Sequence record: OP795442
Direction: 5' to 3' (one strand)
Source of the DNA: Escherichia phage A7_1
DNA length: 64,000 nucleotides
The notes under the pieces are model-generated. The model saw only the letters and a program-made list of their open reading frames with translations, did no database searches and had not been told where the DNA came from. The position numbers and the translations under genes are program-made. Of this stretch, positions 1 through 63,121 are shown piece after piece. Position 1 is the first letter of the stretch; each line of letters starts with the position of its first letter.

Positions 1-2
1 TG

Positions 3-374
3 GCTAAAAATACTAACGTTTGTGATTACGCTGATCTGGTTACTCTGAATGCAGATTCTAAAATCAACCTGTCAAACGTGGAAGCGGTGCACGTCCTGGC
101 CCGCCGCTGGTTCCAAAAGTTATATGGTAATACTTATTTCTCTTTAAGTGTAGATGTGGAGATCGCTGGTAAATTGGTAGAAGTAGTTAACGTCCCGTTT
201 ACATATGGTTATGGTGATCATTTCGATACCGTGGCACTGGAAGAATTTAGCAAGGTTATCAACATGGAAGGAAAAGAGTTTTCAGAGTATAGTTACCTTT
301 CCCGTTTTTGCCGTGACAATAACATCCCTGTTTATTCGAACGCTGTTGATGTTAAACGCAAAAAAGATATGTAA
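3..374 (+). CDS. hypothetical protein, probably 5'-partial
   Basis: Frame is open from window start to TAA 372-374; track start GTG 78 has no RBS. Confidence 0.4.
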   Translation, partial: AKNTNVCDYADLVTLNADSKINLSNVEAVHVLARRWFQKLYGNTYFSLSVDVEIAGKLVEVVNVPFTYGYGDHFDTVALEEFSKVINMEGKEFSEYSYLSRFCRDNNIPVYSNAVDVKRKKDM

Positions 375-380
375 TTATTA

Positions 381-440
381 TTGACAGTACATAGAAAACA
401 AGTAAACGGTATTACATAGAAAGCGGGAACACTTCCCGCT
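381..440 (+). promoter_or_regulatory. promoter (TTGACA 381-386) plus 5' hairpin AGCGGGAA/TTCCCGCT 422-440
   Basis: -35 consensus, 17-nt spacer, weak -10 AAACGG, perfect 8-bp GC stem before RBS of 462..713. Confidence 0.5.
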
Positions 441-461
441 TATATTCCAGGAGTAAGAGAA

Positions 462-713
462 ATGATCGAACAAATCAAAACTACGACGGCTAATGTAACG
501 GGTACAATATCGCACTTTATTAGTGATGAATCGCGGGGCGTTCCTTATTGTGCAGTACATGTAAACAAAAATGGCGACTACTGGTTAACGGCGTATGGAT
601 CTTATTCTTTCGGACGTAGTGCACACCAAAAGATCCTGGATAAAGTACAACCAACGGGTAAAAATATTACCGCTGAGATGTTTAATAAATCACTTGCAAA
701 GTTAAAAGCGTAA
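462..713 (+). CDS. hypothetical protein (83 aa)
   Basis: ORF with RBS GGAG upstream, downstream of promoter-hairpin cassette. Confidence 0.55.
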   Translation: MIEQIKTTTANVTGTISHFISDESRGVPYCAVHVNKNGDYWLTAYGSYSFGRSAHQKILDKVQPTGKNITAEMFNKSLAKLKA

Positions 714-753
714 AGTATAATACATCACATCAGGCGGGGAGTGTTTCCCCGCC
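694..753 (+). promoter_or_regulatory. promoter (TTGCAA 694-699, TATAAT 716-721) plus hairpin GGCGGGGA/TCCCCGCC 733-753
   Basis: Consensus -10, perfect 8-bp stem just after predicted start site. Confidence 0.55.
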
Positions 754-774
754 ACAAAATGAAAGGCCAACAAA

Positions 775-954
775 ATGAAATCAAGCATGATGGTAGCGAC
801 TGTAAACATTATCATTGGTAACGGAACTGGACACCACGAAATCATAAAAAACAAGGCTTACTCTATTAGCTCCCTCAAAAACGACATGCGTTTATCTTTG
901 GGCCAAATCCGCGCTTACTTTCGTGAAGGCTATCAGAAAAAAGTAGCAAATTAA
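775..954 (+). CDS. hypothetical small protein (59 aa), absent from ORF track
   Basis: ATG 775 to TAA 952-954 read codon by codon; preceded by promoter-hairpin cassette. Confidence 0.45.
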   Translation: MKSSMMVATVNIIIGNGTGHHEIIKNKAYSISSLKNDMRLSLGQIRAYFREGYQKKVAN

Positions 955-957
955 TAG

Positions 958-986
958 TTGACGCAAAGGTCATTTTAATTTAATCT
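958..986 (+). promoter_or_regulatory. sigma70-like promoter (TTGACG 958-963, TAATCT 981-986)
   Basis: 17-nt spacer; precedes RBS GAGG and ATG 1015. Confidence 0.4.
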
Positions 987-1014
987 ATAACAAATCGACA
1001 AATGAGGCATAATC

Positions 1015-1317
1015 ATGTTTACCAAAGCAAATGAGTATTTCTTTTTAGATTTACTTGATGAAAGTATCTTTGTAGCTATGGGCAAAAAGTCAATGGTCTT
1101 TAAACGCAAAAAAGATAATGGTGACTTTGAAGATAGCGAAGCCGTGCTAACAGTCAAGGAAGGTAAAGATCCTGCAACGTCTGTTTTAATCTACACCTTG
1201 ACCAACGGCGGTGAAGTTATCGCATCAGGGAGTAGCCATCCGATCCCAAAATCGGAAGTGAACACTGTAATTATTGGTTTTGTTGCAGCTTGTTTCTACG
1301 AGGAAAAAAGCAAATGA
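1015..1317 (+). CDS. hypothetical protein (100 aa)
   Basis: ORF with RBS and upstream promoter. Confidence 0.55.
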   Translation: MFTKANEYFFLDLLDESIFVAMGKKSMVFKRKKDNGDFEDSEAVLTVKEGKDPATSVLIYTLTNGGEVIASGSSHPIPKSEVNTVIIGFVAACFYEEKSK

Positions 1318-1478
1318 ATCCGCAAAATTTATCTTATGTAAACTGGCCCAATAAGGCTGAGAAGAAAGAAAACTTGAAACGTCTGGTTAACTTTTATCGT
1401 GAAGCTGGTCATAGTAAAGTAACAGCGGTTAAAATGGCAAAGCGCCACCTTAACAAGCCAAGTACTAAACTAATTTAA
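1314..1478 (+). CDS. hypothetical small protein (54 aa)
   Basis: ATG 1314 overlaps upstream stop TGA 1315-1317 (ATGA coupling); RBS-like AGGAAAAAAG. Confidence 0.4.
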   Translation: MNPQNLSYVNWPNKAEKKENLKRLVNFYREAGHSKVTAVKMAKRHLNKPSTKLI

Positions 1479-1486
1479 AAAACTTG

Positions 1487-1515
1487 TTGACGTTGGCTTG
1501 TGCCGTACCTATAAT
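1487..1515 (+). promoter_or_regulatory. sigma70-like promoter (TTGACG 1487-1492, TATAAT 1510-1515)
   Basis: Consensus -10 with 17-nt spacer. Confidence 0.6.
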
Positions 1516-1550
1516 GGACGGCATAGGCAAACGAAATAGGATTTATAGAA

Positions 1551-1757
1551 ATGAAAAAGAAAATTGTATATAATATTATTAGCTTTATCGCAACTATCCT
1601 CCTGGCTATTGCTGGTCTATCTTTGATTGTTGCAGTAGGATCTCTGTTTCCTGGGGCAATAAGTATTAGCATAGCTTTCGCCGCATTGTCTGTTTTTACA
1701 GGGTATGCAGGGATTAAAGTTACTTACTGGTCAGAAGATTACAAATATTCAAACTAA
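1551..1757 (+). CDS. hypothetical membrane protein (68 aa)
   Basis: Two hydrophobic segments; ORF behind consensus promoter. Confidence 0.55.
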   Translation: MKKKIVYNIISFIATILLAIAGLSLIVAVGSLFPGAISISIAFAALSVFTGYAGIKVTYWSEDYKYSN

Positions 1758-1770
1758 ATTGAGGTGTAAG

Positions 1771-1920
1771 ATGTACAAGCTATTAACCTGGGAAACAGAA
1801 TCATCGTCACCGATCAGCCGGACCTTTTTTGATTTGTGCACGGCTTACAGGCTGGCAAAGGGAGGATATCATAAGGCCCAAATCATTGATGAATTTAATG
1901 TTATCCTTTATGAATTTTAA
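1771..1920 (+). CDS. hypothetical small protein (49 aa)
   Basis: ATG 1771 with RBS GAGGTG, 13 nt after upstream stop; track ORF 1705..1920 starts inside upstream gene. Confidence 0.3.
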   Translation: MYKLLTWETESSSPISRTFFDLCTAYRLAKGGYHKAQIIDEFNVILYEF

Positions 1921-1967
1921 TCAATTCATACACTTAAAAGAAAGTTAGAAAAAGTTTTAAAAAGTGG

Positions 1968-2020
1968 TTGCAACAGGTATTGGATAGTAGTATAGTACTT
2001 TCAACGGGGCGAGATGGCCC
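1968..2020 (+). promoter_or_regulatory. promoter (TTGCAA 1968-1973, TATAGT 1991-1996) plus short hairpin 2007-2020
   Basis: 17-nt spacer; GGGC/GCCC stem downstream. Confidence 0.45.
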
Positions 2021-2049
2021 AAAACGAAAAAACTTGAAAGGTGATTATC

Positions 2050-2142
2050 ATGATGGCAATTTTCTTAGTTTCTCTTCTGGTTGCTGTATGTTCTGCCACT
2101 GCTGCCGCTGTACTTTATGACACTCGCTACAATGAGGAATAA
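2050..2142 (+). CDS. hydrophobic micro-protein (30 aa), absent from ORF track
   Basis: ATG 2050, RBS AGGTG, TAA 2140-2142; sequence MMAIFLVSLLVAVCSATAAAVLYDTRYNEE. Confidence 0.3.
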   Translation: MMAIFLVSLLVAVCSATAAAVLYDTRYNEE

Positions 2143-2147
2143 TAAAA

Positions 2148-2366
2148 ATGAATATTGTCAACATTACAGGTAAGACCGAGATCCTTAAGAATCTTGCACC
2201 AGGTGAGTCCACCGTATGGATCTGCAAAGATGGAGAAGTAGAAAAACAAATGAGATTGTTTACCGCTATTTGTTGTCGGTTAAATATGAAAGTTACACAA
2301 ATCCGATCGATGATTGTTAGTGTGGGAAACATTCCGACTGAATGCATAATTCTTACAAAGATTTAA
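2148..2366 (+). CDS. hypothetical protein (72 aa)
   Basis: ORF 6 nt after upstream stop. Confidence 0.5.
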   Translation: MNIVNITGKTEILKNLAPGESTVWICKDGEVEKQMRLFTAICCRLNMKVTQIRSMIVSVGNIPTECIILTKI

Positions 2367-2373
2367 AAATAGC

Positions 2374-2401
2374 TTTACAACAACGATAAAATCAGTACAA
2401 T
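2374..2401 (+). promoter_or_regulatory. sigma70-like promoter (TTTACA 2374-2379, TACAAT 2396-2401)
   Basis: 16-nt spacer. Confidence 0.45.
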
Positions 2402-2442
2402 ACAAATCAGGCAATAAAGCCAACTAAAGAAAGGTAAAGACC

Positions 2443-2682
2443 ATGCAAACTATTATCACTAAGTTTCTTCCTCCTACGAATACCCGTGGCGCTCGCATCA
2501 AAGCAAAATGTTGGTTGACAGATATCACTATCGCCTATCCGGTAGCCGAGATCAACGAAGCCCATAAACTGGCGGCAGAAGTGTTAATTACAAAATTGAA
2601 GATGACAACAGATATTGATTGGAAAATTGTTGCAAGTGGTGAAACACCGGACGGATCAGGTTATGCATTTATCATCAAATAA
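2443..2682 (+). CDS. hypothetical protein (79 aa)
   Basis: ORF with RBS AAAGGTAAAG. Confidence 0.55.
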   Translation: MQTIITKFLPPTNTRGARIKAKCWLTDITIAYPVAEINEAHKLAAEVLITKLKMTTDIDWKIVASGETPDGSGYAFIIK

Positions 2683-2685
2683 TTG

Positions 2686-2741
2686 TTGACAACAGCAAAG
2701 TAAGCGCGTAGTATTCATTTTACAGGGGCGACAAGCGCCCC
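2686..2741 (+). promoter_or_regulatory. promoter (TTGACA 2686-2691, TAGTAT 2709-2714) plus hairpin GGGGCG/CGCCCC 2725-2741
   Basis: 17-nt spacer; 6-bp GC stem after start site. Confidence 0.55.
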
Positions 2742-2750
2742 GCTTATCAG

Positions 2751-3032
2751 ATGAGACAAATCATGAAAATATCATTGGACGTTGCAATCAAGGCCATCGA
2801 ATCCGGTTACACTCTGGTTAAGGACGATAAGGCTAAAATCGTGCATCACGTTAACAAGGAAACAGGCGAAAGCATGATCACATATAAAGCCGCCTACTTT
2901 CTCCAATCAGTAGCAGATCCGCGCCTGCAACGCCAGGTTACGGCGGCTATCGCTAAAAAATTATGTGCTTTACAAGGTACAAGTTTTAACGAGATCGCCC
3001 CGTGTTTTGATTGGTCAAGCTTGAAAAAATAG
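2751..3032 (+). CDS. hypothetical protein (93 aa)
   Basis: ORF after cassette; start could be ATG 2751 or 2763. Confidence 0.55.
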   Translation: MRQIMKISLDVAIKAIESGYTLVKDDKAKIVHHVNKETGESMITYKAAYFLQSVADPRLQRQVTAAIAKKLCALQGTSFNEIAPCFDWSSLKK

Positions 3033-3033
3033 T

Positions 3034-3091
3034 TTGACAATACGCAGTTATCTGGTAAAGTGTACTACATAGCGCGGAAATACTTCCCGCC
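3034..3091 (+). promoter_or_regulatory. promoter (TTGACA 3034-3039) plus imperfect GC hairpin about 3072-3091
   Basis: Weak -10 AAAGTG at 17-nt spacing, then conserved CATAG and GC stem. Confidence 0.45.
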
Positions 3092-3109
3092 ATTAATGAG
3101 GATAATTTA

Positions 3110-3247
3110 ATGAAAACTTTCAACGCAACAGCCTCGACAATTGGTTATATTATTACAGTGCAAGCCGTAGATCTGGTAGCAGCAGCAAACAAGATTAAAA
3201 GAATGATCCCGCTAGGTAGTGAATTTTCCGTTTGGGAAGTAAAATAA
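3110..3247 (+). CDS. hypothetical small protein (45 aa), absent from ORF track
   Basis: ATG 3110, RBS GAGG, TAA 3245-3247. Confidence 0.4.
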   Translation: MKTFNATASTIGYIITVQAVDLVAAANKIKRMIPLGSEFSVWEVK

Positions 3248-3250
3248 TTC

Positions 3251-3312
3251 TTGACAATAGTTTGTTACTTGATAGAATGTATTTCGTAGGGCGGGGCAAT
3301 GGAGCAACGCCC
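3251..3312 (+). promoter_or_regulatory. promoter (TTGACA 3251-3256) plus hairpin GGGCG...CGCCC 3289-3312
   Basis: Same architecture as neighbouring cassettes. Confidence 0.45.
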
Positions 3313-3330
3313 ATTAATGAGGCTAGCATC

Positions 3331-3435
3331 ATGTTAGAGAAAATTTTCACGGTTGCAGTGGTTGGCCTGGCGTTATCGGTTGGAGTGGTTGCAACTATGG
3401 CTAATATGATCCTATCTTCCCACGGTATCGGTTAA
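3331..3435 (+). CDS. hydrophobic micro-protein (34 aa)
   Basis: ATG 3331 after hairpin; track ORF 3232..3435 starts upstream of the promoter in the same frame. Confidence 0.35.
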   Translation: MLEKIFTVAVVGLALSVGVVATMANMILSSHGIG

Positions 3436-3447
3436 GAGAGACACATC

Positions 3448-3834
3448 ATGAAAACAGAAATCATTATTGAAATCATCAACGGTTACAAAGAGGCTTTTAT
3501 CTTTGCTGAATCAGCCAGGAATCACGAAGGTGATTTTATAGATGACATGACTGATTATGATTTTTCAGATCAAGCCCAGCAACGGATCATTCGTGACGTG
3601 GCGGCTTTTTGTGACGCCAATGATGCCGCTATCTCTGAGGCAATGAGCGACGGCGCAACAGCCAACCAGATCGGGAATGATTTACATTTTACCCGTAACG
3701 GTCACAGCGTAGGCTTTTGGGATCGCCCTGAGATATACACTACTAACACGGCTAACCGTTTGACCAATGCCGCTAAATTTATGCCAAACGTGTCAGCCTA
3801 CATTGGGAAAGATAATCTGATTTATATTGAATAA
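3448..3834 (+). CDS. hypothetical acidic protein (128 aa)
   Basis: ORF with RBS AAGAGAG. Confidence 0.55.
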   Translation: MKTEIIIEIINGYKEAFIFAESARNHEGDFIDDMTDYDFSDQAQQRIIRDVAAFCDANDAAISEAMSDGATANQIGNDLHFTRNGHSVGFWDRPEIYTTNTANRLTNAAKFMPNVSAYIGKDNLIYIE

Positions 3835-3840
3835 AAAGTA

Positions 3841-3895
3841 TTGACAAGCTGAATCAACCTGACAAGATGTATCACATAGGGGCGATAAACGCCCC
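3841..3895 (+). promoter_or_regulatory. promoter (TTGACA 3841-3846) plus hairpin GGGGCG-ATAAA-CGCCCC 3879-3895
   Basis: 6-bp GC stem after conserved CATAG. Confidence 0.5.
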
Positions 3896-3915
3896 ATAAC
3901 AGAAAGGGTAATCTT

Positions 3916-4110
3916 ATGACGTTAGCAACATGTACCGGATCAAAAATTGCTTGCTTTGAGTTTATGGAAGACTACCACACGACCGCAATCACTGACCAAT
4001 ATATTACAGTGATCACGCGTGACGGTATCGCCTGGCATGTTCCGGTTTATGATGGGGATACCTATGAAGTCACCGACAGCGACGGCAATACAGCTATCTT
4101 TGTTGTCTAA
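3916..4110 (+). CDS. hypothetical protein (64 aa)
   Basis: ORF with RBS AAAGGG. Confidence 0.55.
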   Translation: MTLATCTGSKIACFEFMEDYHTTAITDQYITVITRDGIAWHVPVYDGDTYEVTDSDGNTAIFVV

Positions 4111-4121
4111 GGGGGAACACT

Positions 4122-4349
4122 ATGCACAATAACATCATTACCGATCGTGCCGCCACTATGCGCCCTGGCGATCGGGCACGTTTACAGGTTGGCGCTTATC
4201 CGTTCCCTACTTATGACTTTTGCAAGGTGACGGCAGTCGAAAACAATCCCTTTGATCCTGATACTGTGATCATATGGTACGAAGGAAGGGGAAATAAGTA
4301 TGAAGATGTTTTATGGCGGGATGAGCATATCAACATTATTCGTTACTAA
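4122..4349 (+). CDS. hypothetical protein (75 aa)
   Basis: ORF with RBS GGGGGA. Confidence 0.55.
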   Translation: MHNNIITDRAATMRPGDRARLQVGAYPFPTYDFCKVTAVENNPFDPDTVIIWYEGRGNKYEDVLWRDEHINIIRY

Positions 4350-4466
4350 TCGCCACCTAACAGCCTAAATAGTAGGAGGCAATGCAATCCCTACTCAATG
4401 AGAATGGAGCGCCCTGGCTTATGCTGGGGCGTTTTATGTTGTATGGAAATAATTTAGAAAATAAGC

Positions 4467-4525
4467 TTGACGCCGGGAATGTTAGCGCGTATAGTTTATC
4501 ACATAGGGCGGCAATAGTGCCGCTC
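4467..4525 (+). promoter_or_regulatory. promoter (TTGACG 4467-4472, TATAGT 4490-4495) plus hairpin GCGGCA/TGCCGC 4506-4525
   Basis: 17-nt spacer; lies inside track ORF 4382..4717. Confidence 0.5.
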
Positions 4526-4543
4526 ATAATTGGAGTAGAGATC

Positions 4544-4717
4544 ATGGCAATTCTGGCGAAAGATGTAAAAGTAGGTATGACCTTTAATGATTGTGAAGTT
4601 GTCTATGTTGCCGCGCACGGCGACGGTATCATTACCATTGAAACAGAACACTTTGATCGAGATTGTGGCGAGATGGAATATTTTTCTTGCGAGTATCATG
4701 AAAACGATGAGTTTTAA
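4544..4717 (+). CDS. hypothetical protein (58 aa); could extend in frame from ATG 4382
   Basis: ATG 4544 with RBS GGAG downstream of embedded cassette. Confidence 0.4.
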   Translation: MAILAKDVKVGMTFNDCEVVYVAAHGDGIITIETEHFDRDCGEMEYFSCEYHENDEF

Positions 4718-4721
4718 ACTA

Positions 4722-4778
4722 TTGACACTGTAAGTAATTGTGTTAATATTTTTGTGTAGGGCGGCAATGTTGCCGCTC
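4722..4778 (+). promoter_or_regulatory. promoter (TTGACA 4722-4727, AATATT 4745-4750) plus hairpin GCGGCA/TGCCGC 4759-4778
   Basis: Hairpin nearly identical to the one at 4506-4525. Confidence 0.55.
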
Positions 4779-4797
4779 ACTGACTGGAGCTATCACC

Positions 4798-5199
4798 ATG
4801 ACCTTTACAATCACCTCTTACACTGACGTTGCCAGCATTGCTAAAACTTTCGGCCCTGAAGCCCTTAAATATGCGGTATCCAATGGTAATCTGACAAAAG
4901 AGGAATGTTATCTGATTGGAAGCTGTAAACGTTGGGCGGTATCTCGTAACATCGAGATTGAAAACGTAAATGATGGCAACATCGAATATAGCGTTGATGC
5001 AGTATTCCAAGTTGTTGATTTAGGTGGTATCTATAATACCAATCTTAATGATGTGCGTATCGTTCGCACTGGCTTTGGGGCTTATGATGTTCCAGTTCGT
5101 GAAGCTATGGAAAAAGGTTATATTAATCCAGCCATTTTAAGCATGATCATGACTGAGGCCAAACAACGTAACGAGATACGGGCTATCCTGGGCCTGTAA
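4798..5199 (+). CDS. hypothetical protein (133 aa)
   Basis: ORF with RBS GGAG. Confidence 0.6.
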   Translation: MTFTITSYTDVASIAKTFGPEALKYAVSNGNLTKEECYLIGSCKRWAVSRNIEIENVNDGNIEYSVDAVFQVVDLGGIYNTNLNDVRIVRTGFGAYDVPVREAMEKGYINPAILSMIMTEAKQRNEIRAILGL

Positions 5200-5220
5200 T
5201 GAAATATTAATGGAAAACTA

Positions 5221-5272
5221 TTGACACGGATCGTCAATATGCTAATATTTATCACGTAGGGCGGCAACGCCC
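5221..5272 (+). promoter_or_regulatory. promoter (TTGACA 5221-5226, AATATT 5244-5249) plus hairpin GGGCG-GCAA-CGCCC 5259-5272
   Basis: 17-nt spacer; GC stem with GNRA-like loop. Confidence 0.55.
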
Positions 5273-5298
5273 CAGATTAATAAAAATAGGAAATAAAT

Positions 5299-5505
5299 AT
5301 GACTACTTCAATGATCAGATCTTCCGACATTAAAAAGGCTTTATCTGCATTGCGTTATCATCATAGAATGAAAGTAATCAACGATGAGAGCTATCTAGAT
5401 TCATCGTTAGAAAGCGATACGTTGGAAGCCATTTCAAAATTATCTGATTTGCATAAACGCATGACCGAAAGCAACCGATCCGACTTCATAGGGGGCGAAA
5501 TATGA
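5299..5505 (+). CDS. hypothetical protein (68 aa)
   Basis: ORF with RBS AGGAAA. Confidence 0.55.
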   Translation: MTTSMIRSSDIKKALSALRYHHRMKVINDESYLDSSLESDTLEAISKLSDLHKRMTESNRSDFIGGEI

Positions 5506-5762
5506 GCATTGCAATGTTAATCAATACCGTAGAAGAGGCGAAAGCATTAAAGTTACGTGTTGAACTGATTGATCAGCCAGGTGGAGATCTCCTTGTACAA
5601 ATCTATCCCCCAAAGGATGATTCTGGCGCTTATGATTGGTGCTACTCTGACACGTTCGAACAAGTAGACATTAAAGCAATAACATCATTTATCAATAGGG
5701 CTATACTTGAGCAAACGATAGAACTTAACGGGATGTTAAAAACACCCTGGCACATTTACTGA
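5502..5762 (+). CDS. hypothetical protein (86 aa)
   Basis: ATGA overlap with upstream gene. Confidence 0.55.
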   Translation: MSIAMLINTVEEAKALKLRVELIDQPGGDLLVQIYPPKDDSGAYDWCYSDTFEQVDIKAITSFINRAILEQTIELNGMLKTPWHIY

Positions 5763-5772
5763 GTTCGACAAA

Positions 5773-5800
5773 AGGGCTTGACTTGTTCAGCCCTTTTTTG
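5773..5800 (+). terminator. intrinsic terminator
   Basis: GC-rich hairpin followed by TTTTTT. Confidence 0.6.
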
Positions 5801-5939
5801 CTATTCTTATCAAACGGGCGGCACCTGGGAACAGGGGGGAGGTAATCACTGGACGACTCCGCTATATAGTGATAGTAAATAGCTATCAATAATCTCCAAA
5901 AATAAAATAAAACATATCGAATCTTTACAATTCTTTCTG

Positions 5940-5968
5940 TTGACACAACAACCGCATTACAGTATTAT
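5940..5968 (+). promoter_or_regulatory. sigma70-like promoter (TTGACA 5940-5945, TATTAT 5963-5968)
   Basis: 17-nt spacer; no ORF downstream for about 340 nt. Confidence 0.5.
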
Positions 5969-5975
5969 TTATCTC

Positions 5976-6240
5976 GTAGGGCAGCGAAGCAGTGATGTAA
6001 AGTAGTTACTCTATGATGTAAGTTCTGAGAAGTCGAATCCGATAAAGTATCAGAAAGTTTCTAAGTTTTCGAATCGTCCAGATGAAAAAGGCTGGCAAGT
6101 GTTGAGAAAGGGCACGTTGAGTAAGTCCTGAACAGGGGCGCTCCTAGACACCTTCTACTGAGATTGCGATCGAAGTGTTAAACTGTGAGAAACGATAAAG
6201 AGTACCAGGAAAGAAAGAAGTAAAAGAAGTGAAAAAGATT
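5976..6240 (+). ncRNA. candidate small non-coding RNA or long leader
   Basis: Promoter-driven segment with stops in all frames and longest ATG ORF of 7 codons; AG-rich 3' part. Confidence 0.25.
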
Positions 6241-6241
6241 G

Positions 6242-6271
6242 TTGACACGAAGGTAAGTTTTGTACTATTAT
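6242..6271 (+). promoter_or_regulatory. sigma70-like promoter (TTGACA 6242-6247, TATTAT 6266-6271)
   Basis: 18-nt spacer. Confidence 0.5.
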
Positions 6272-6315
6272 CTATCTTGTAGGGCAAACTTCAAAAACAT
6301 TAAAAAGGGTACAAA

Positions 6316-6591
6316 ATGTTACAGCTTAACGCCAAATTAGACAAAGAAATCACTGAATTTTGGGATATGGTAGTAGCTACAGATGTTGACGGTGTAGCAA
6401 GTCCTTACCTCAACAACATCGAATACCACAATGTTGCTGCAATGAATGCAGAATACGCAGAAGAAGGCGGCGCGGATAAGTTTGCTAAAAGCAACGGTTT
6501 CACTGATGCTAACGACATGATGCAATCAGTATTGTGGCAAGCCCAGGAAGATTTTCAAGAAAAAACCCTTGAATTCGCCAGACGTTCATAA
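6316..6591 (+). CDS. hypothetical acidic protein (91 aa)
   Basis: ORF with RBS AAGGG. Confidence 0.55.
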   Translation: MLQLNAKLDKEITEFWDMVVATDVDGVASPYLNNIEYHNVAAMNAEYAEEGGADKFAKSNGFTDANDMMQSVLWQAQEDFQEKTLEFARRS

Positions 6592-6643
6592 TAGAATAAT
6601 CAAACGGGCCGAAAGGCCCACTAACTAACCTAACAGGATTATC

Positions 6644-6916
6644 ATGATGAATCGCATCGACCAATTGAAAGTAGTTCAGCATATGGCCTACCGTATCCTT
6701 GAAGTTCAGAAAGGAAGCAAAAAAGAAGTATGTGAGAAAGCGTACAAGGTATTCAGCCATAAATCTGACGATTGGAAGTTGCAGAAAGTCAAAAAGGCCG
6801 ACATTCTGGGCTATCTTGAAGAAGAGATCCGACTTGCAGACCAAAAACAGATTCGTCGTGATGAGGCTGAACATAACCAGGCTTGGAAAGAATGGTTTAA
6901 AGGGTACACTAAGTAA
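6644..6916 (+). CDS. hypothetical protein (90 aa)
   Basis: ORF with RBS CAGGA. Confidence 0.5.
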   Translation: MMNRIDQLKVVQHMAYRILEVQKGSKKEVCEKAYKVFSHKSDDWKLQKVKKADILGYLEEEIRLADQKQIRRDEAEHNQAWKEWFKGYTK

Positions 6917-6925
6917 TACTAAAAC

Positions 6926-6947
6926 AGGGGTCATATGGCCCCTTTGT
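6926..6947 (+). terminator. intrinsic terminator
   Basis: Hairpin AGGGGTCATATGGCCCCT then TTTG. Confidence 0.5.
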
Positions 6948-6977
6948 AAATATCCTATTAATTTACAATTTTCCCTA

Positions 6978-7007
6978 TTGACAGAGAAGTCAGTTTTGCA
7001 CTATAGT
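6978..7007 (+). promoter_or_regulatory. sigma70-like promoter (TTGACA 6978-6983, TATAGT 7002-7007)
   Basis: 18-nt spacer. Confidence 0.5.
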
Positions 7008-7047
7008 TAAGTTCCTGGCAGCAAACAACAAAACAAAGGATAATAGC

Positions 7048-7467
7048 ATGAACATCAAATCAACTAATCCAGCATACTCTTTCGATAACGCCTTTTGTCA
7101 CGGTAGCGCCGCCAAAGGTTTTGAAATTGATGGTAAACTGGTTATCGTCAATGTTGATGGGGAAGAGGTTGCAGTTTATCCAGTAGCAGACGTTAAAAGC
7201 CGTTTACAATGCCGCATGGATGTTAACGATTATCGCCTTGATCCGGTTCGTGTAGTTGCCCTGGTTCTGGAAGAGGAAATTAAAGCAATGCAGCACAGCA
7301 ACAAATTTATCGGCGATGCACAGGACAACATGAAAGTAAGCCGCCACAAAGTTAATGAAGCACTGAAAGATTTTGGCTTTAAAGATCTAGTTATCAAACG
7401 TGATGAAAAATTCCGCTTTCGTAATGATCTGGCAAATCGCTACTATGAAATATATGAAGCACTTTAA
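7048..7467 (+). CDS. hypothetical protein (139 aa)
   Basis: ORF with RBS AAGGA. Confidence 0.6.
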   Translation: MNIKSTNPAYSFDNAFCHGSAAKGFEIDGKLVIVNVDGEEVAVYPVADVKSRLQCRMDVNDYRLDPVRVVALVLEEEIKAMQHSNKFIGDAQDNMKVSRHKVNEALKDFGFKDLVIKRDEKFRFRNDLANRYYEIYEAL

Positions 7468-7472
7468 TAAAA

Positions 7473-7494
7473 AGGCCGCAATAGCGGCCTTTGT
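7473..7494 (+). terminator. intrinsic terminator
   Basis: Hairpin AGGCCGC-AATA-GCGGCCT then TTGT. Confidence 0.55.
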
Positions 7495-7497
7495 CTA

Positions 7498-7526
7498 TTG
7501 ACACCTGGTAAGCATTTCTTTAATAT
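7498..7526 (+). promoter_or_regulatory. sigma70-like promoter (TTGACA 7498-7503, TAATAT 7521-7526)
   Basis: 17-nt spacer. Confidence 0.55.
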
Positions 7527-7578
7527 GTATCTTGTAGGGCAAGCAATAACGCAAGCCTATAAACAGGACAAACTAATC

Positions 7579-7776
7579 ATGACCATCGCTAATGAACTGA
7601 TCGCTGTACTGAATGAAGCCAAATCTAATGATATCGATGTACAGATTAAAGAGTTACCCAATGGTCTGATCGGTTGTACTTGCACTTGTGTCGGAAGTGA
7701 CTACACAGAAGTAAGCTCACTAGAATCTTTGATCCGTCACCTCAAGGCGATAGTAGAAGATTGGAGAATCATCTAA
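7579..7776 (+). CDS. hypothetical protein (65 aa), C-x-C-x-C motif
   Basis: ATG 7579 downstream of promoter; track ORF starts inside the promoter. Confidence 0.5.
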   Translation: MTIANELIAVLNEAKSNDIDVQIKELPNGLIGCTCTCVGSDYTEVSSLESLIRHLKAIVEDWRII

Positions 7777-7783
7777 TCAACAA

Positions 7784-61320: not shown

Positions 61321-61403
61321 GCGCGGGTGTATCTCAACGGTCTTCTAAACCGTCGTTAATCGAGTAATTGGAGTATGAAGGTTCGAGTCCTTTCTCCCGC
61401 GCT
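61321..61403 (+). ncRNA. tRNA-like element, cloverleaf unresolved
   Basis: Perfect GGTTCGAGTCC T-arm and GCGCGGG/CCCGCGC ends but no consistent D or anticodon arm. Confidence 0.25.
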
Positions 61404-61420
61404 AAGTTCTTTTGAATATA

Positions 61421-61492
61421 GGCCCTGTAGCTGGACGGTTCAAGCAAGCGACTCATAATCGCCAGACGGTGGTTCGATTCCACCCAGGGCCA
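61421..61492 (+). tRNA. tRNA with CAU anticodon (Met, or Ile2-type)
   Basis: 7-bp acceptor GGCCCTG/CAGGGCC, loop CTCATAA, T-arm GGTGGTTCGATTCCACC, encoded CCA. Confidence 0.8.
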
Positions 61493-61628
61493 CCATATGA
61501 AGTCGGGTCGCTCCCGATAAGTCGTCGGACTGATGTTCCCTGACTACGAGTTCCCTCAACGATAACGACGTAGATCACAGCAGAAACGGCGCACCCTATT
61601 TCATTTCTTAATACATTTCAATAAGTTC

Positions 61629-61657
61629 TTGACATAATCCTATTATACTGCTAATAT
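61629..61657 (+). promoter_or_regulatory. sigma70-like promoter (TTGACA 61629-61634, TAATAT 61652-61657)
   Basis: 17-nt spacer. Confidence 0.55.
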
Positions 61658-61678
61658 AGTTATATCGACTGAATTGAG

Positions 61679-62059
61679 GTGTTTATGGCTAAAGCTGAAA
61701 TCGTTACTCGAAAACGCGGTCGGCCTACTACAGAGGAAAGCATTGCAATCAATACTGAGAGAGCAATTCTTCATGCTCGTTCCGAGTTTGCAAGACTTAC
61801 TCCTCAAGCAATTAAAACTCTGGAAGGTCTACTGACTTCCGGTACAGAGAAAGTTAAAGAAACTACTGCGAAGTATATTCTTGAGCAAGCTGAAAAGGCA
61901 AACAATCTGTACACGATGGAAGATAATGAAGAGGATCTGGCAGGAGGAACTACTTCTGCAAATTCAGAAACTCATCAAGGCCCTTCTGATGCATTTAAAG
62001 ATGCTATTCCATTAACTACTCAGATTCGTGAGTATAAAATGGCAGAAGGTGAAGATTAA
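61679..62059 (+). CDS. hypothetical protein (126 aa) with N-terminal RKRGRP basic motif
   Basis: ORF with RBS GAGGTG. Confidence 0.5.
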   Translation: MFMAKAEIVTRKRGRPTTEESIAINTERAILHARSEFARLTPQAIKTLEGLLTSGTEKVKETTAKYILEQAEKANNLYTMEDNEEDLAGGTTSANSETHQGPSDAFKDAIPLTTQIREYKMAEGED

Positions 62060-62297
62060 GGCTCGCAAGGGCCTTTACTAAGAAGTTCTCTTTAAGGTAG
62101 TTGCTTGGTGTAATTTTTCGGCAGATGGCTGCAACCATCCTATCGATAACTTATAGTTAGTGCTGCAAACACTGGCTACCTTAAAGAGAATTTAACTCGT
62201 CGAATAAGGAAGATGCTGATCTCAAAGTGAGGTCACTTACCGCAAGGGGTGTGCATAGACTCCCGCTTCCGAATAGACTATGTGGCGAGATGTATTT

Positions 62298-62376
62298 GGG
62301 GACGTGGCAGAGCGGTCGAATGCGCCTGACTGTAAATTAGGTATCCCACACGGTGGTTCGAATCCATCCGGCCCCA
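62298..62376 (+). tRNA. tRNA-Tyr (GUA), class II
   Basis: Loop CTGTAAA, D-loop GAGCGG-type, T-arm GGTGGTTCGAATCCATC, encoded CCA; one A-G mismatch in acceptor stem. Confidence 0.65.
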
Positions 62377-62382
62377 CCAAAT

Positions 62383-62455
62383 TTTCCGTTAGGCTTACAG
62401 GATAAGATTCCCACAACGTATCGTTGTGATACTGGTTCGAATCCAGTACGGAAAC
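62383..62455 (+). ncRNA. tRNA-like element with non-canonical anticodon arm
   Basis: Perfect acceptor and T-arm, but central 7-bp hairpin CACAACG-TAT-CGTTGTG replaces a canonical anticodon loop. Confidence 0.3.
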
Positions 62456-62582
62456 CAAATTAAGCCGTGATGTGATGTAATCACTGACCTCTTTGAAGGA
62501 TCATGGCATTTTATACAAAAACCTGAATAATTTAGGTTTTAATTCCTGGGGTTCGTAGCCCTATTACTAAGAGGACTTAACT

Positions 62583-62792
62583 ATGTTTACTATTAAAATT
62601 ATTGATATCGATGGAAATGAGACTGGTGTTTCAACAAGGCACTATAGATGGTACTCAAAAATGAATATTTTTGATCTGGATGGTGGTGAATCTGTTTCTG
62701 TACCACCAAAAAGTCGTGCTTATGTAATGAATGACAAAGGAATAACCATCGGTAGATACACAAATACAGCGGATCAACGCGTTCTTAATTAA
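62583..62792 (+). CDS. hypothetical protein (69 aa)
   Basis: ORF with RBS AAGAGGA; ends 1 nt before tRNA-Gly. Confidence 0.45.
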   Translation: MFTIKIIDIDGNETGVSTRHYRWYSKMNIFDLDGGESVSVPPKSRAYVMNDKGITIGRYTNTADQRVLN

Positions 62793-62793
62793 A

Positions 62794-62865
<72 letters not shown>

Positions 62866-62967
62866 CCAAACCTCTATCCATCTGACGCGTTTATGGGGTT
62901 GACCTGATCACTCTTCTCCTAATCTCGTGTGAAGACACCATGATTGTTGGGATGGATAAACTTCTTT

Positions 62968-63039
62968 TGGGGATTAGCCAAGCGGTAAGGCATCGGATTT
63001 TGATTCCGACATTCACTGGTTCGATTCCAGTATCCCCAG
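62968..63039 (+). tRNA. tRNA-Gln (UUG)
   Basis: Perfect stems; loop TTTTGAT; U1-A72 start as in E. coli tRNA-Gln (from memory); encoded CCA. Confidence 0.9.
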
Positions 63040-63047
63040 CCAATTAA

Positions 63048-63121
<74 letters not shown>

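What the first reader, a model, noticed from the sequence alone, without database searches (positions are those of the whole stretch)
381..3312. Two promoter sub-classes within the cassette array
Some cassettes have near-consensus -10 hexamers (TATAAT 1510, TATAGT 4490, TATTAT 5963, TAATAT 7521). Others (381, 3034, 3251, 3841) have purine-rich hexamers (AAACGG, AAAGTG, AGAATG, AAGATG) at the -10 position followed by TGTAT or TAT. These may form a distinct temporal class needing a phage factor or using extended -10 recognition.
Basis: seen in the sequence. Interest (0 to 1): 0.35.

Follow-up and report, generated by a model that had tools for sequence, protein, structure and literature searches.

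The report
Ordinary phage early promoters, misread register
The four "purine-rich -10" promoters are ordinary host-type (sigma-70) early promoters of an rV5-like coliphage read one base out of register: they have a 16-bp rather than 17-bp spacer, normal TAnnnT-type -10 boxes and mostly an extra TG ("extended -10") contact, so nothing points to a separate phage-factor-dependent class.

Summary
Window 1-7800 (+ strand) is the early small-gene array of a Vequintavirinae (rV5-like) coliphage, 97.7% identical to phage A5-4. Each cassette has an A-rich upstream tract, TTGACA, a -10 box, a conserved start region YRTAGGGCGG, usually a GC hairpin, then SD and a small ORF.

The quoted strings exist, but AAACGG, AAAGTG, AGAATG and AAGATG result from imposing a 17-bp spacer. 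With 16 bp the hexamers are TAAACG (403-408), TAAAGT (3056-3061), TAGAAT (3273-3278) and CAAGAT (3863-3868). Four things support this register:
- the fixed 6-nt distance to the start motif;
- -10 matrix scores;
- an independent promoter scan;
- relatives, which carry TAAACT/TAAATT and TAAGAT at the two weak sites.

Three of the four have TG at -15/-14 (extended -10), as do P4722 and P5221.

Across seven genomes TGn occurs in 12/20 versus 0/20 dereplicated cassettes. Hexamer sets and mean -10 scores overlap, and both groups have consensus -35 boxes and are interleaved on one strand. So a phage-factor-dependent temporal class is unsupported. Extended -10 use is supported for three of four. The rV5 paper already reported sigma-70 promoters, a third with extended -10. 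Low interest.

The parts
381..386 (+). P381 -35 box TTGACA
   Evidence: invariant in 7 phages (A1)
403..408 (+). P381 -10 box TAAACG, 16-bp spacer, no TGn (AAG upstream). The G at -7 (408) is unique to this window.
Evidence: Six relatives have T here: TAAACT, TAAATT or TAAAAT.
415..441 (+). P381 start motif CATAG (predicted +1 at C415/A416, inferred) and 9-bp 5' hairpin at 421-441
   Evidence: dG -13.9, z -3.4
3034..3039 (+). P3034 -35 box TTGACA
3053..3061 (+). P3034 extended -10 TGgTAAAGT (TG 3053-3054, hexamer 3056-3061), 16-bp spacer
   Evidence: 16, TAAAGT, TG yes; +5.4 bits
3068..3090 (+). P3034 start motif CATAG and 5' hairpin
   Evidence: dG -7.8
3251..3256 (+). P3251 -35 box TTGACA
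3270..3278 (+). P3251 extended -10 TGaTAGAAT (TG 3270-3271, hexamer 3273-3278), 16-bp spacer
   Evidence: 11 of 12 matches, TG yes; +6.9 bits
3285..3312 (+). P3251 start motif CGTAG and 5' hairpin GGGCG...CGCCC
   Evidence: dG -15.0
3841..3846 (+). P3841 -35 box TTGACA
3860..3868 (+). P3841 extended -10 TGaCAAGAT (TG 3860-3861, hexamer 3863-3868), 16-bp spacer. C at -12 is shared only with A5-4.
   Evidence: A73, UPEC06 and phiWec181 have TAAGAT or TAAAGT
3875..3895 (+). P3841 start motif CATAG and 5' hairpin GGGGCG/CGCCCC
   Evidence: dG -13.0, z -3.5
1487..1515 (+). Comparator P1487: TTGACG-17-TATAAT, no TGn
4467..4495 (+). Comparator P4467: TTGACG-17-TATAGT, no TGn
4722..4749 (+). P4722: TTGACA-16-TGtTAATAT, a good hexamer in the 16-bp/TGn group
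5221..5248 (+). P5221: TTGACA-16-TGcTAATAT, also in the 16-bp/TGn group
5940..5968 (+). Comparator P5940: TTGACA-17-TATTAT
7498..7526 (+). Comparator P7498: TTGACA-17-TAATAT, followed by GTATCT as in the 'odd' group

Best explanation
All eight promoters are host sigma-70 early promoters of one cassette family in an rV5-like (Vequintavirinae) coliphage. P3034, P3251 and P3841 also carry TGn at -15 to -13, an extra contact for sigma region 3 that can offset the shorter spacer and weaker hexamers. P381 (T to G at -7) and P3841 (T to C at -12) carry lineage-specific down-type substitutions. P3841 is probably buffered by consensus -35 plus TGn, while P381 is probably weak. RNA polymerase is predicted to start at the purine of the conserved YRTAG, about 7 nt after the hexamer, giving transcripts that in most cassettes (12 of 17) begin with a GC hairpin, then SD and a small ORF. 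The difference between the groups is quantitative (spacer length, TGn, hexamer quality). It also reflects descent and recombination of paralogous cassettes, not a separate regulatory class. Shown here: sequence register, conservation and associations. Inferred: sigma-70 dependence, start sites, relative strengths and early timing.
For: Identity: 97.7% to Escherichia phage A5-4, Vequintavirinae.

Register:
- PWM scores favour the 16-bp register by 4 to 14.5 bits.
- The independent scan calls 3034 and 3251 as 16-bp promoters with TG.
- Column information in 20 dereplicated 16-bp cassettes peaks at -12, -11 and -7, the sigma-70 signature.

Orthologues: position -7 of P381 is T in six relatives, and -12 of P3841 is T in four others.

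TGn: present in 5 of 17 window promoters against a 6.5% background (P=0.004). Across cassettes it is 12/20 versus 0/20.

Overlap of the groups: TAATAT, TATAAT, TAAAGT, TAAGAT and TATAGT occur with both spacers, and mean -10 scores are 5.27 versus 5.89 bits.

Precedent: rV5 has 33 sigma-70-like promoters, 11 with extended -10 (PMC3606486). Consensus -35 plus TGn can compensate a weak -10 (PMC10911233). T4 early promoters are UP/-35/TGn/-10 (PMC2988021).
Against: No transcript or in vitro data exist for this phage group in the searched literature, so sigma-70 dependence, start sites and timing are inferred. TAAACG lacks the near-invariant T at -7 and has no TGn, so P381 may be nearly inactive rather than 'ordinary'. 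The TGn/16-bp association could have a function I have not identified. In E. coli TGn is reported to go with 18-bp spacers, and in rV5 and elsewhere in this window with 17 to 18 bp. The -10 matrix used consensus frequencies recalled from Lisser and Margalit 1993, with the remainder spread evenly, so absolute scores are approximate.
Confidence: 0.85

Rival explanations
1. One reading: the four promoters have non-canonical purine-rich -10 elements and form a separate temporal class that needs a phage-encoded factor.
For: The quoted strings do sit 17 bp after TTGACA. P381 and P3841 have weak -10 boxes even in the corrected register, +0.8 and +1.1 bits. rV5 encodes an Srd-like putative anti-sigma decoy (PMC3606486), so RNA polymerase modification is conceivable in this group.
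Against: The corrected register gives TAnnnT-type boxes, supported by the PWM, the start-motif anchor and orthologues. All four keep a perfect TTGACA at a sigma-70 spacing. T4-type factor-dependent middle promoters instead replace -35 with a MotA box. There is no class-specific extra motif, and the start motif matches the other group. The two groups are interleaved co-directionally, and few intrinsic terminators lie between them.
Confidence: 0.04
2. A functional two-tier design: 16-bp/TGn promoters and 17-bp/no-TGn promoters are both read by sigma-70 holoenzyme but behave differently during infection. For example, they might differ in sensitivity to a phage factor that targets sigma region 4 or the alpha subunit, or in shut-off kinetics.
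For: The TGn/spacer association is strong across three genera. TGn/-10 promoters are immune to T4 AsiA (PMC2988021). Spacer sequences upstream of TG have diverged while TG is kept.
Against: The 16-bp group shares further sequence (aAAtcTGg...gTATyA), so shared ancestry may explain the association. 8 of 20 16-bp cassettes lack TG. Outside the array and in rV5, TGn goes with 17 to 18-bp spacers. No AsiA-like factor was sought or found here. All promoters keep consensus -35 boxes.
Confidence: 0.08
3. The split has no functional meaning: two paralogous cassette lineages spread by duplication and recombination, each carrying its ancestral spacer length and flanking bases.
For: Homology-block end points against relatives fall inside cassettes: 46/63, or 32/47 distinct, in windows covering 19% of the region. 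phiWec181 has a hybrid P3034/P3251 cassette. The 16-bp group shares bases beyond the functional elements.
Against: This is largely compatible with the best explanation rather than exclusive of it. Conservation peaks at -12, -11 and -7, and TG persists over diverged spacers, which argues that selection still acts on function.
Confidence: 0.5

Closest known systems
Sigma-70-type promoters of coliphage rV5 (Kropinski et al. 2013, PMC3606486, Table S4)
   Same: Same subfamily. Both have TTGACA -35 boxes, TAnnnT -10 boxes including TAAACT, TAAGAT, TAATAT and TAAAAT, and about one third with TGn extended -10 (11 of 33 in rV5; 5 of 17 here).
   Different: In rV5 the listed TGn promoters mostly have 17-bp spacers, whereas in this array TGn goes with 16 bp. 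The rV5 paper does not describe the conserved YRTAGGGCGG start region and hairpin.
Extended -10 and -35/TGn promoters of E. coli (Mitchell et al. 2003; Hook-Barnard and Hinton 2007, as cited in PMC10911233)
   Same: TG at -15/-14 upstream of the hexamer. Consensus -35 plus TGn alongside a sub-optimal -10 (P3841 CAAGAT, P3034 TAAAGT).
   Different: E. coli TGn promoters are reported to be enriched for 18-bp spacers and weak -35 boxes. Here they have 16-bp spacers and perfect -35 boxes.
T4 early promoters (UP/-35/TGn/-10; Hinton 2010, PMC2988021)
   Same: Strong multi-element sigma-70 promoters in front of many small non-essential early genes, with an A-rich upstream tract.
   Different: A different phage family. 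Only some promoters here carry TGn. Alt-type modulation is unknown here.
PeSL cassettes (promoter-early stem-loop) of T4-like phages RB49 and phi1 (Arbiol et al. 2010, PMC2839356; Comeau et al. 2014, PMC4122927)
   Same: Repeated intergenic cassettes that combine a sigma-70 early promoter with a GC stem-loop in front of ORFans. Mosaic breakpoints between related phages lie in the cassettes. An ORF is present or absent between two cassettes.
   Different: The phage is not T4-like. Here the stem-loop lies in the initial transcribed region after a conserved YRTAG start motif. Terminator activity and mini-circles were not tested.

Membership tests
Sigma-70 -35/-10 promoter | -35 hexamer close to TTGACA | tested here: met
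   TTGACA is perfect in P381, P3034, P3251 and P3841.
Sigma-70 -35/-10 promoter | Spacer of 16 to 18 bp to a -10 hexamer with T-12, A-11 and T-7 | tested here: met
   With a 16-bp spacer, TAAAGT and TAGAAT meet it fully. CAAGAT lacks T-12 and TAAACG lacks T-7, but relatives have T at both positions. So it is met for two promoters and met with one deviation each for the other two.
Sigma-70 -35/-10 promoter | Transcription by E. coli sigma-70 holoenzyme alone, starting 6 to 8 nt after the hexamer | not testable with these tools
   A conserved purine lies at the expected distance (YRTAG). No transcript data were found.
Extended -10 (TGn) promoter | T at -15 and G at -14, one base upstream of the -10 hexamer | tested here: met
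   Met for P3034 (TGg), P3251 (TGa) and P3841 (TGa), and also for P4722 and P5221. Not met for P381 (AAG).
Phage-factor-dependent middle promoter (T4 MotA/AsiA type) | The -35 element is replaced by an activator box centred near -30, with a sigma-70 -10 retained | tested here: not met
   A consensus TTGACA is present at -35. There is no shared box in the spacers beyond aAAtcTGg. Criterion taken from PMC2988021.
rV5 putative late promoter motif TGGTAAAATA | The motif lies upstream of late (structural) genes, generally without a requirement for -35 | tested here: not met
   P3034 TGGTAAAGTG resembles the motif (8 of 10 bases). However, it has a perfect -35 box and sits in the small-ORF early array. 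The other three do not match.
PeSL cassette | Repeated intergenic unit of a sigma-70 early promoter plus a GC stem-loop upstream of ORFans | tested here: met
   17 promoters lie in 7.6 kb. 12 have a GC hairpin within the first 30 nt or so of the predicted transcript. Downstream proteins are all of unknown function.
PeSL cassette | Recombination between cassettes shuffles the flanked ORFs | tested here: met
   46 of 63 homology end points lie inside cassette windows that cover 19% of the region. phiWec181 has a hybrid cassette lacking ORF 3110-3247. This is comparative evidence only.
PeSL cassette | The stem-loop acts as a terminator or attenuator, mini-circles form, and the host phage is T4-like | not testable with these tools
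   Most hairpins have no T-run. The phage is Vequintavirinae, not T4-like. So it works like a PeSL but is not a member of the described set.

The most novel reading that the evidence does not exclude
The 16-bp/TGn cassettes and the 17-bp/no-TGn cassettes may be two kinetically distinct tiers of early promoters. For example, TGn could keep the first tier active after a phage factor (Srd-like or AsiA-like) disables sigma region 4 contacts. That would give this phage group a two-phase early programme encoded purely in spacer length plus TG.
Probability: 0.07. Interest if true: 0.45.

Novelty: new member of a known kind. Interest (0 to 1): 0.12.

Why it matters
It mainly corrects a misreading: fixing the spacer at 17 bp when reading phage promoters by eye creates false 'non-canonical' -10 elements. 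The corrected picture gives a usable promoter map for an unannotated early region (register, TGn, predicted starts). It flags two natural down-type substitutions (P381 -7G, P3841 -12C). It also shows that a promoter-hairpin cassette family is shared by Vequintavirinae and Stephanstirmvirinae and coincides with mosaic breakpoints, extending PeSL-type modular shuffling beyond T4-like phages. None of this would surprise a specialist.

Tried and rejected
- **Alternative -10 candidates downstream** (TATTAC after 381; TG-T-ATTTCG or TATCAC after 3251 and 3841) need 19 to 23-bp spacers or lack A-11/T-7, so I rejected them.
- **Shifting the -35 register by one base** (nTTGAC) gives 1 of 6 matches. Rejected by inspection.
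- **Rfam.** The gathering search of the whole window found only six tRNAs. The E-value search of 5700-9100 found only chance-level hits.
- **PHROGs.** Ten downstream proteins were scanned. All matches are 'unknown function', with no difference between the groups.
- **Literature.** I found no transcriptomics or TSS data for Vequintavirinae, Phapecoctavirus or Justusliebigvirus. One search failed on syntax.
- **IMG/VR pattern scan.** It gave 92 DNA stretches (80 listed in the output), mostly single chance hits. Multiple hits came mainly from contigs of about 97-153 kb (one of 349 kb), which added few new cassettes.
- **Terminators versus 5' hairpins.** I tested whether 5' hairpins and upstream terminators are mutually exclusive. 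They are not consistently so (P4467 has both), and I dropped the idea.
- **ORF-less stretch after P5940.** It does not fold better than shuffles (z=+1.4).
Full report
**What the region is.** Window 1-8000 matches Escherichia phage A5-4 (OP744025, Vequintavirinae, rV5-like) at 97.7% over its full length. It matches A73, UPEC06 and vB_EcoM-LTH01 at 92-94% in blocks. Every annotated gene in the homologous stretch is a small hypothetical protein on one strand. Ten of the window's ORFs hit only PHROG families of unknown function or nothing.

The + strand of 1-7800 carries 17 promoter-like sites, at 381, 694, 958, 1487, 1968, 2374, 2686, 3034, 3251, 3841, 4467, 4722, 5221, 5940, 6242, 6978 and 7498. 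A typical cassette reads:
- an A-rich tract;
- TTGACA, then 16-18 bp, then a -10 hexamer;
- 6 nt (GTATYA or TTATCW);
- YRTAGGGCGG, running into a GC hairpin;
- SD and ATG.

The pattern TTGAC...YRTAG occurs 11 times against 2.5 expected, and no shuffle reaches 11.

**Checking the observation.** The four near-consensus hexamers are exactly where stated, each with a 17-bp spacer. The four 'purine-rich' hexamers are also literally present, but only at a forced 17-bp spacing. Five lines of evidence place the real -10 box one base upstream, with a 16-bp spacer.

1. *Matrix scores.* A sigma-70 -10 matrix gives -5.1, -5.1, -7.6 and -3.0 bits for AAACGG, AAAGTG, AGAATG and AAGATG. It gives +0.8, +5.4, +6.9 and +1.1 bits for TAAACG, TAAAGT, TAGAAT and CAAGAT. 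The matrix uses consensus frequencies recalled from Lisser and Margalit 1993, so it is approximate.
2. *Independent scan.* The promoter scan lists 3251 as TTGACA-16-TAGAAT (11 of 12 matches, TG yes) and 3034 as TTGACA-16-TAAAGT (TG yes).
3. *Distance to the start motif.* The distance from TTGACA to YRTAG tracks the spacer. Matches are 39 nt long for 16 bp, 40 for 17 and 41 for 18. The hexamer therefore ends 6 nt before YRTAG in 10 of 11 window cassettes.
4. *A test that uses no -10 scoring.* I used only TTGACR and YRTARG as anchors, on seven genomes plus IMG/VR loci, dereplicated to 31 cassettes. The hexamer 12 to 7 nt upstream of the start motif is TAnnnT in 14/16 of the 16-bp cassettes, 8/11 of the 17-bp ones and 2/3 of the 18-bp ones.
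5. *Orthologues.* The window's TAAACG is TAAACT in A5-4, A73, LTH01 and phiWec181, TAAATT in UPEC06 and TAAAAT in UAB_1. It is a single T to G change at -7 unique to this window. CAAGAT, shared with A5-4, is TAAGAT in A73, UPEC06 and one phiWec181 cassette, and TAAAGT in another.

Column information content in 20 dereplicated 16-bp cassettes peaks at -12, -11 and -7, as expected for sigma-70. P7498 of the 'consensus' group also has GTATCT.

**What is real in the split.**

Three of the four 16-bp promoters carry TG at -15/-14 (TGgTAAAGT, TGaTAGAAT, TGaCAAGAT). So do P4722 and P5221 (TGtTAATAT, TGcTAATAT), which have good hexamers and also 16-bp spacers. That is 5 of 17 promoters against a TG dinucleotide frequency of 6.5% (binomial P=0.004).

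Across the window, A5-4, A73, UPEC06, LTH01, phiWec181 (Phapecoctavirus) and Salmonella phage UAB_1 (Justusliebigvirus), I dereplicated the sites to 40 cassettes. TG occurs in 12/20 with 16 bp and 0/20 with 17 or 18 bp (Fisher p=4.5e-5). The scoring-free set gives 9/16 against 1/14 (p=0.007).

The groups nevertheless overlap in hexamer repertoire. TAATAT, TATAAT, TAAAGT, TAAGAT and TATAGT occur with both spacers, and mean -10 scores are 5.27 and 5.89 bits. The 16-bp group shares further bases (aAAtcTGg, and G at -6), which points to common descent of these cassettes. Outside the array in this window, and in rV5, TGn promoters have 17-18-bp spacers. In E. coli they are reported to favour 18 bp. 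So the 16-bp/TGn link is a property of this cassette family and not a general rule.

**How it most likely works.** Consensus -35, a 16-17-bp spacer, a TAnnnT box, an upstream A-tract and often TGn make up the classical recipe for strong sigma-70 promoters. The rV5 paper reached the same conclusion for that phage: 33 sigma-70-like promoters, 11 with extended -10, and no evidence for T4-style reprogramming of early or middle promoters. T4 early promoters are described as UP/-35/TGn/-10.

TGn contacts sigma region 3 and, together with a consensus -35, can compensate a weak -10. This fits P3841 (CAAGAT) and P3034 (TAAAGT). P381 has neither T-7 nor TGn and is probably weak. Its gene may depend on read-through from upstream promoters.

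The predicted transcript starts at the YRTAG purine. In 12 of 17 cassettes it folds within 4-6 nt into a GC hairpin, with dG from -6.2 to -17.7 kcal/mol and z from about -1.6 to -3.5. The hairpin's role is inference only. It could be a 5' stabiliser, an attenuator for upstream transcription as in PeSLs, or a recombination target.

A phage-factor-dependent class is unlikely for three reasons:
- No promoter lacks -35 or carries a class-specific box, whereas T4 middle promoters replace -35 with a MotA box.
- The two groups share the start motif, and most cassettes of both have the hairpin.
- They are interleaved on one strand, and only one weak terminator-like site was detected on that strand.

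**Wider context.** End points of homology blocks between the window and five relatives fall inside cassette windows (-15 to +75 of the -35 start) in 46 of 63 cases, or 32 of 47 distinct positions. Those windows cover only 19% of the region (P about 1e-13).

phiWec181 has a single cassette (L006:7211) whose upstream side is collinear with P3034 and whose downstream side matches P3251. The 45-codon ORF 3110-3247 is absent there. This is the behaviour described for PeSL cassettes of T4-like phages, here seen in Vequintavirinae and Stephanstirmvirinae. I found no description of it for this group in the searchable library.

In IMG/VR the full pattern recurs several times per contig mainly in contigs of about 97-153 kb (one of 349 kb). 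Most other hits are single and look like chance.

**Verdict.** These are new members of a known kind, namely sigma-70 early promoters with and without extended -10 in PeSL-like cassettes. Interest is low. The least ordinary reading still open is that the 16-bp/TGn and 17-bp cassettes differ in kinetics during infection. I put that at about 7%.

Noticed in passing
window 1-7800; L006:7211; L007:10739 and 11014: Mosaic breakpoints between this phage and relatives lie inside the promoter-hairpin cassettes: 46 of 63 end points in windows covering 19% of the region. phiWec181 has one hybrid P3034/P3251 cassette and lacks ORF 3110-3247. This is PeSL-like modular shuffling outside T4-like phages.
   Followed up: partly
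window 408 and 3863: There are lineage-specific substitutions at key -10 positions. P381 has G at -7 where six relatives have T. P3841 has C at -12, shared only with A5-4, where four others have T.
   Followed up: yes
window 5940-6241: The strong promoter P5940 (TTGACA-17-TATTAT) is followed by about 270 nt with no + strand ORF of 20 aa or more before the next promoter. The start of this stretch is conserved in relatives. It has no Rfam match and does not fold better than shuffles (z=+1.4). It could be a leader or non-coding RNA.
   Followed up: partly
window 7780-9000: The array ends in an ORF-poor stretch with repeated motifs: tttgcccaca near 7974 and 8321, and attgccagagtatgg near 8010 and 8441. 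In Salmonella phage UAB_1 the equivalent side lies near the annotated terminal repeat. This may be a genome-end or packaging region.
   Followed up: no
window 9000-64000, e.g. - strand 50540 and 27317, + strand 61629: Promoter-like sites outside the array that carry TGn have 17-18-bp spacers, unlike those in the array. The same is true of the rV5 list.
   Followed up: partly
window 3053-3062: P3034 TGGTAAAGTG resembles the putative rV5 'late' motif TGGTAAAATA at 8 of 10 bases, although it has a perfect -35 box and sits in the early array.
   Followed up: no
window 3331-3435: A 34-codon hydrophobic ORF (MLEKIFTVAVVGLALSVGVVATMANMILSSHGIG) lies directly after P3251 and matches phrog_14631 (unknown function). 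It is probably a small membrane peptide.
   Followed up: no
window 61323-63121: A cluster of six tRNA genes on the + strand.
   Followed up: no
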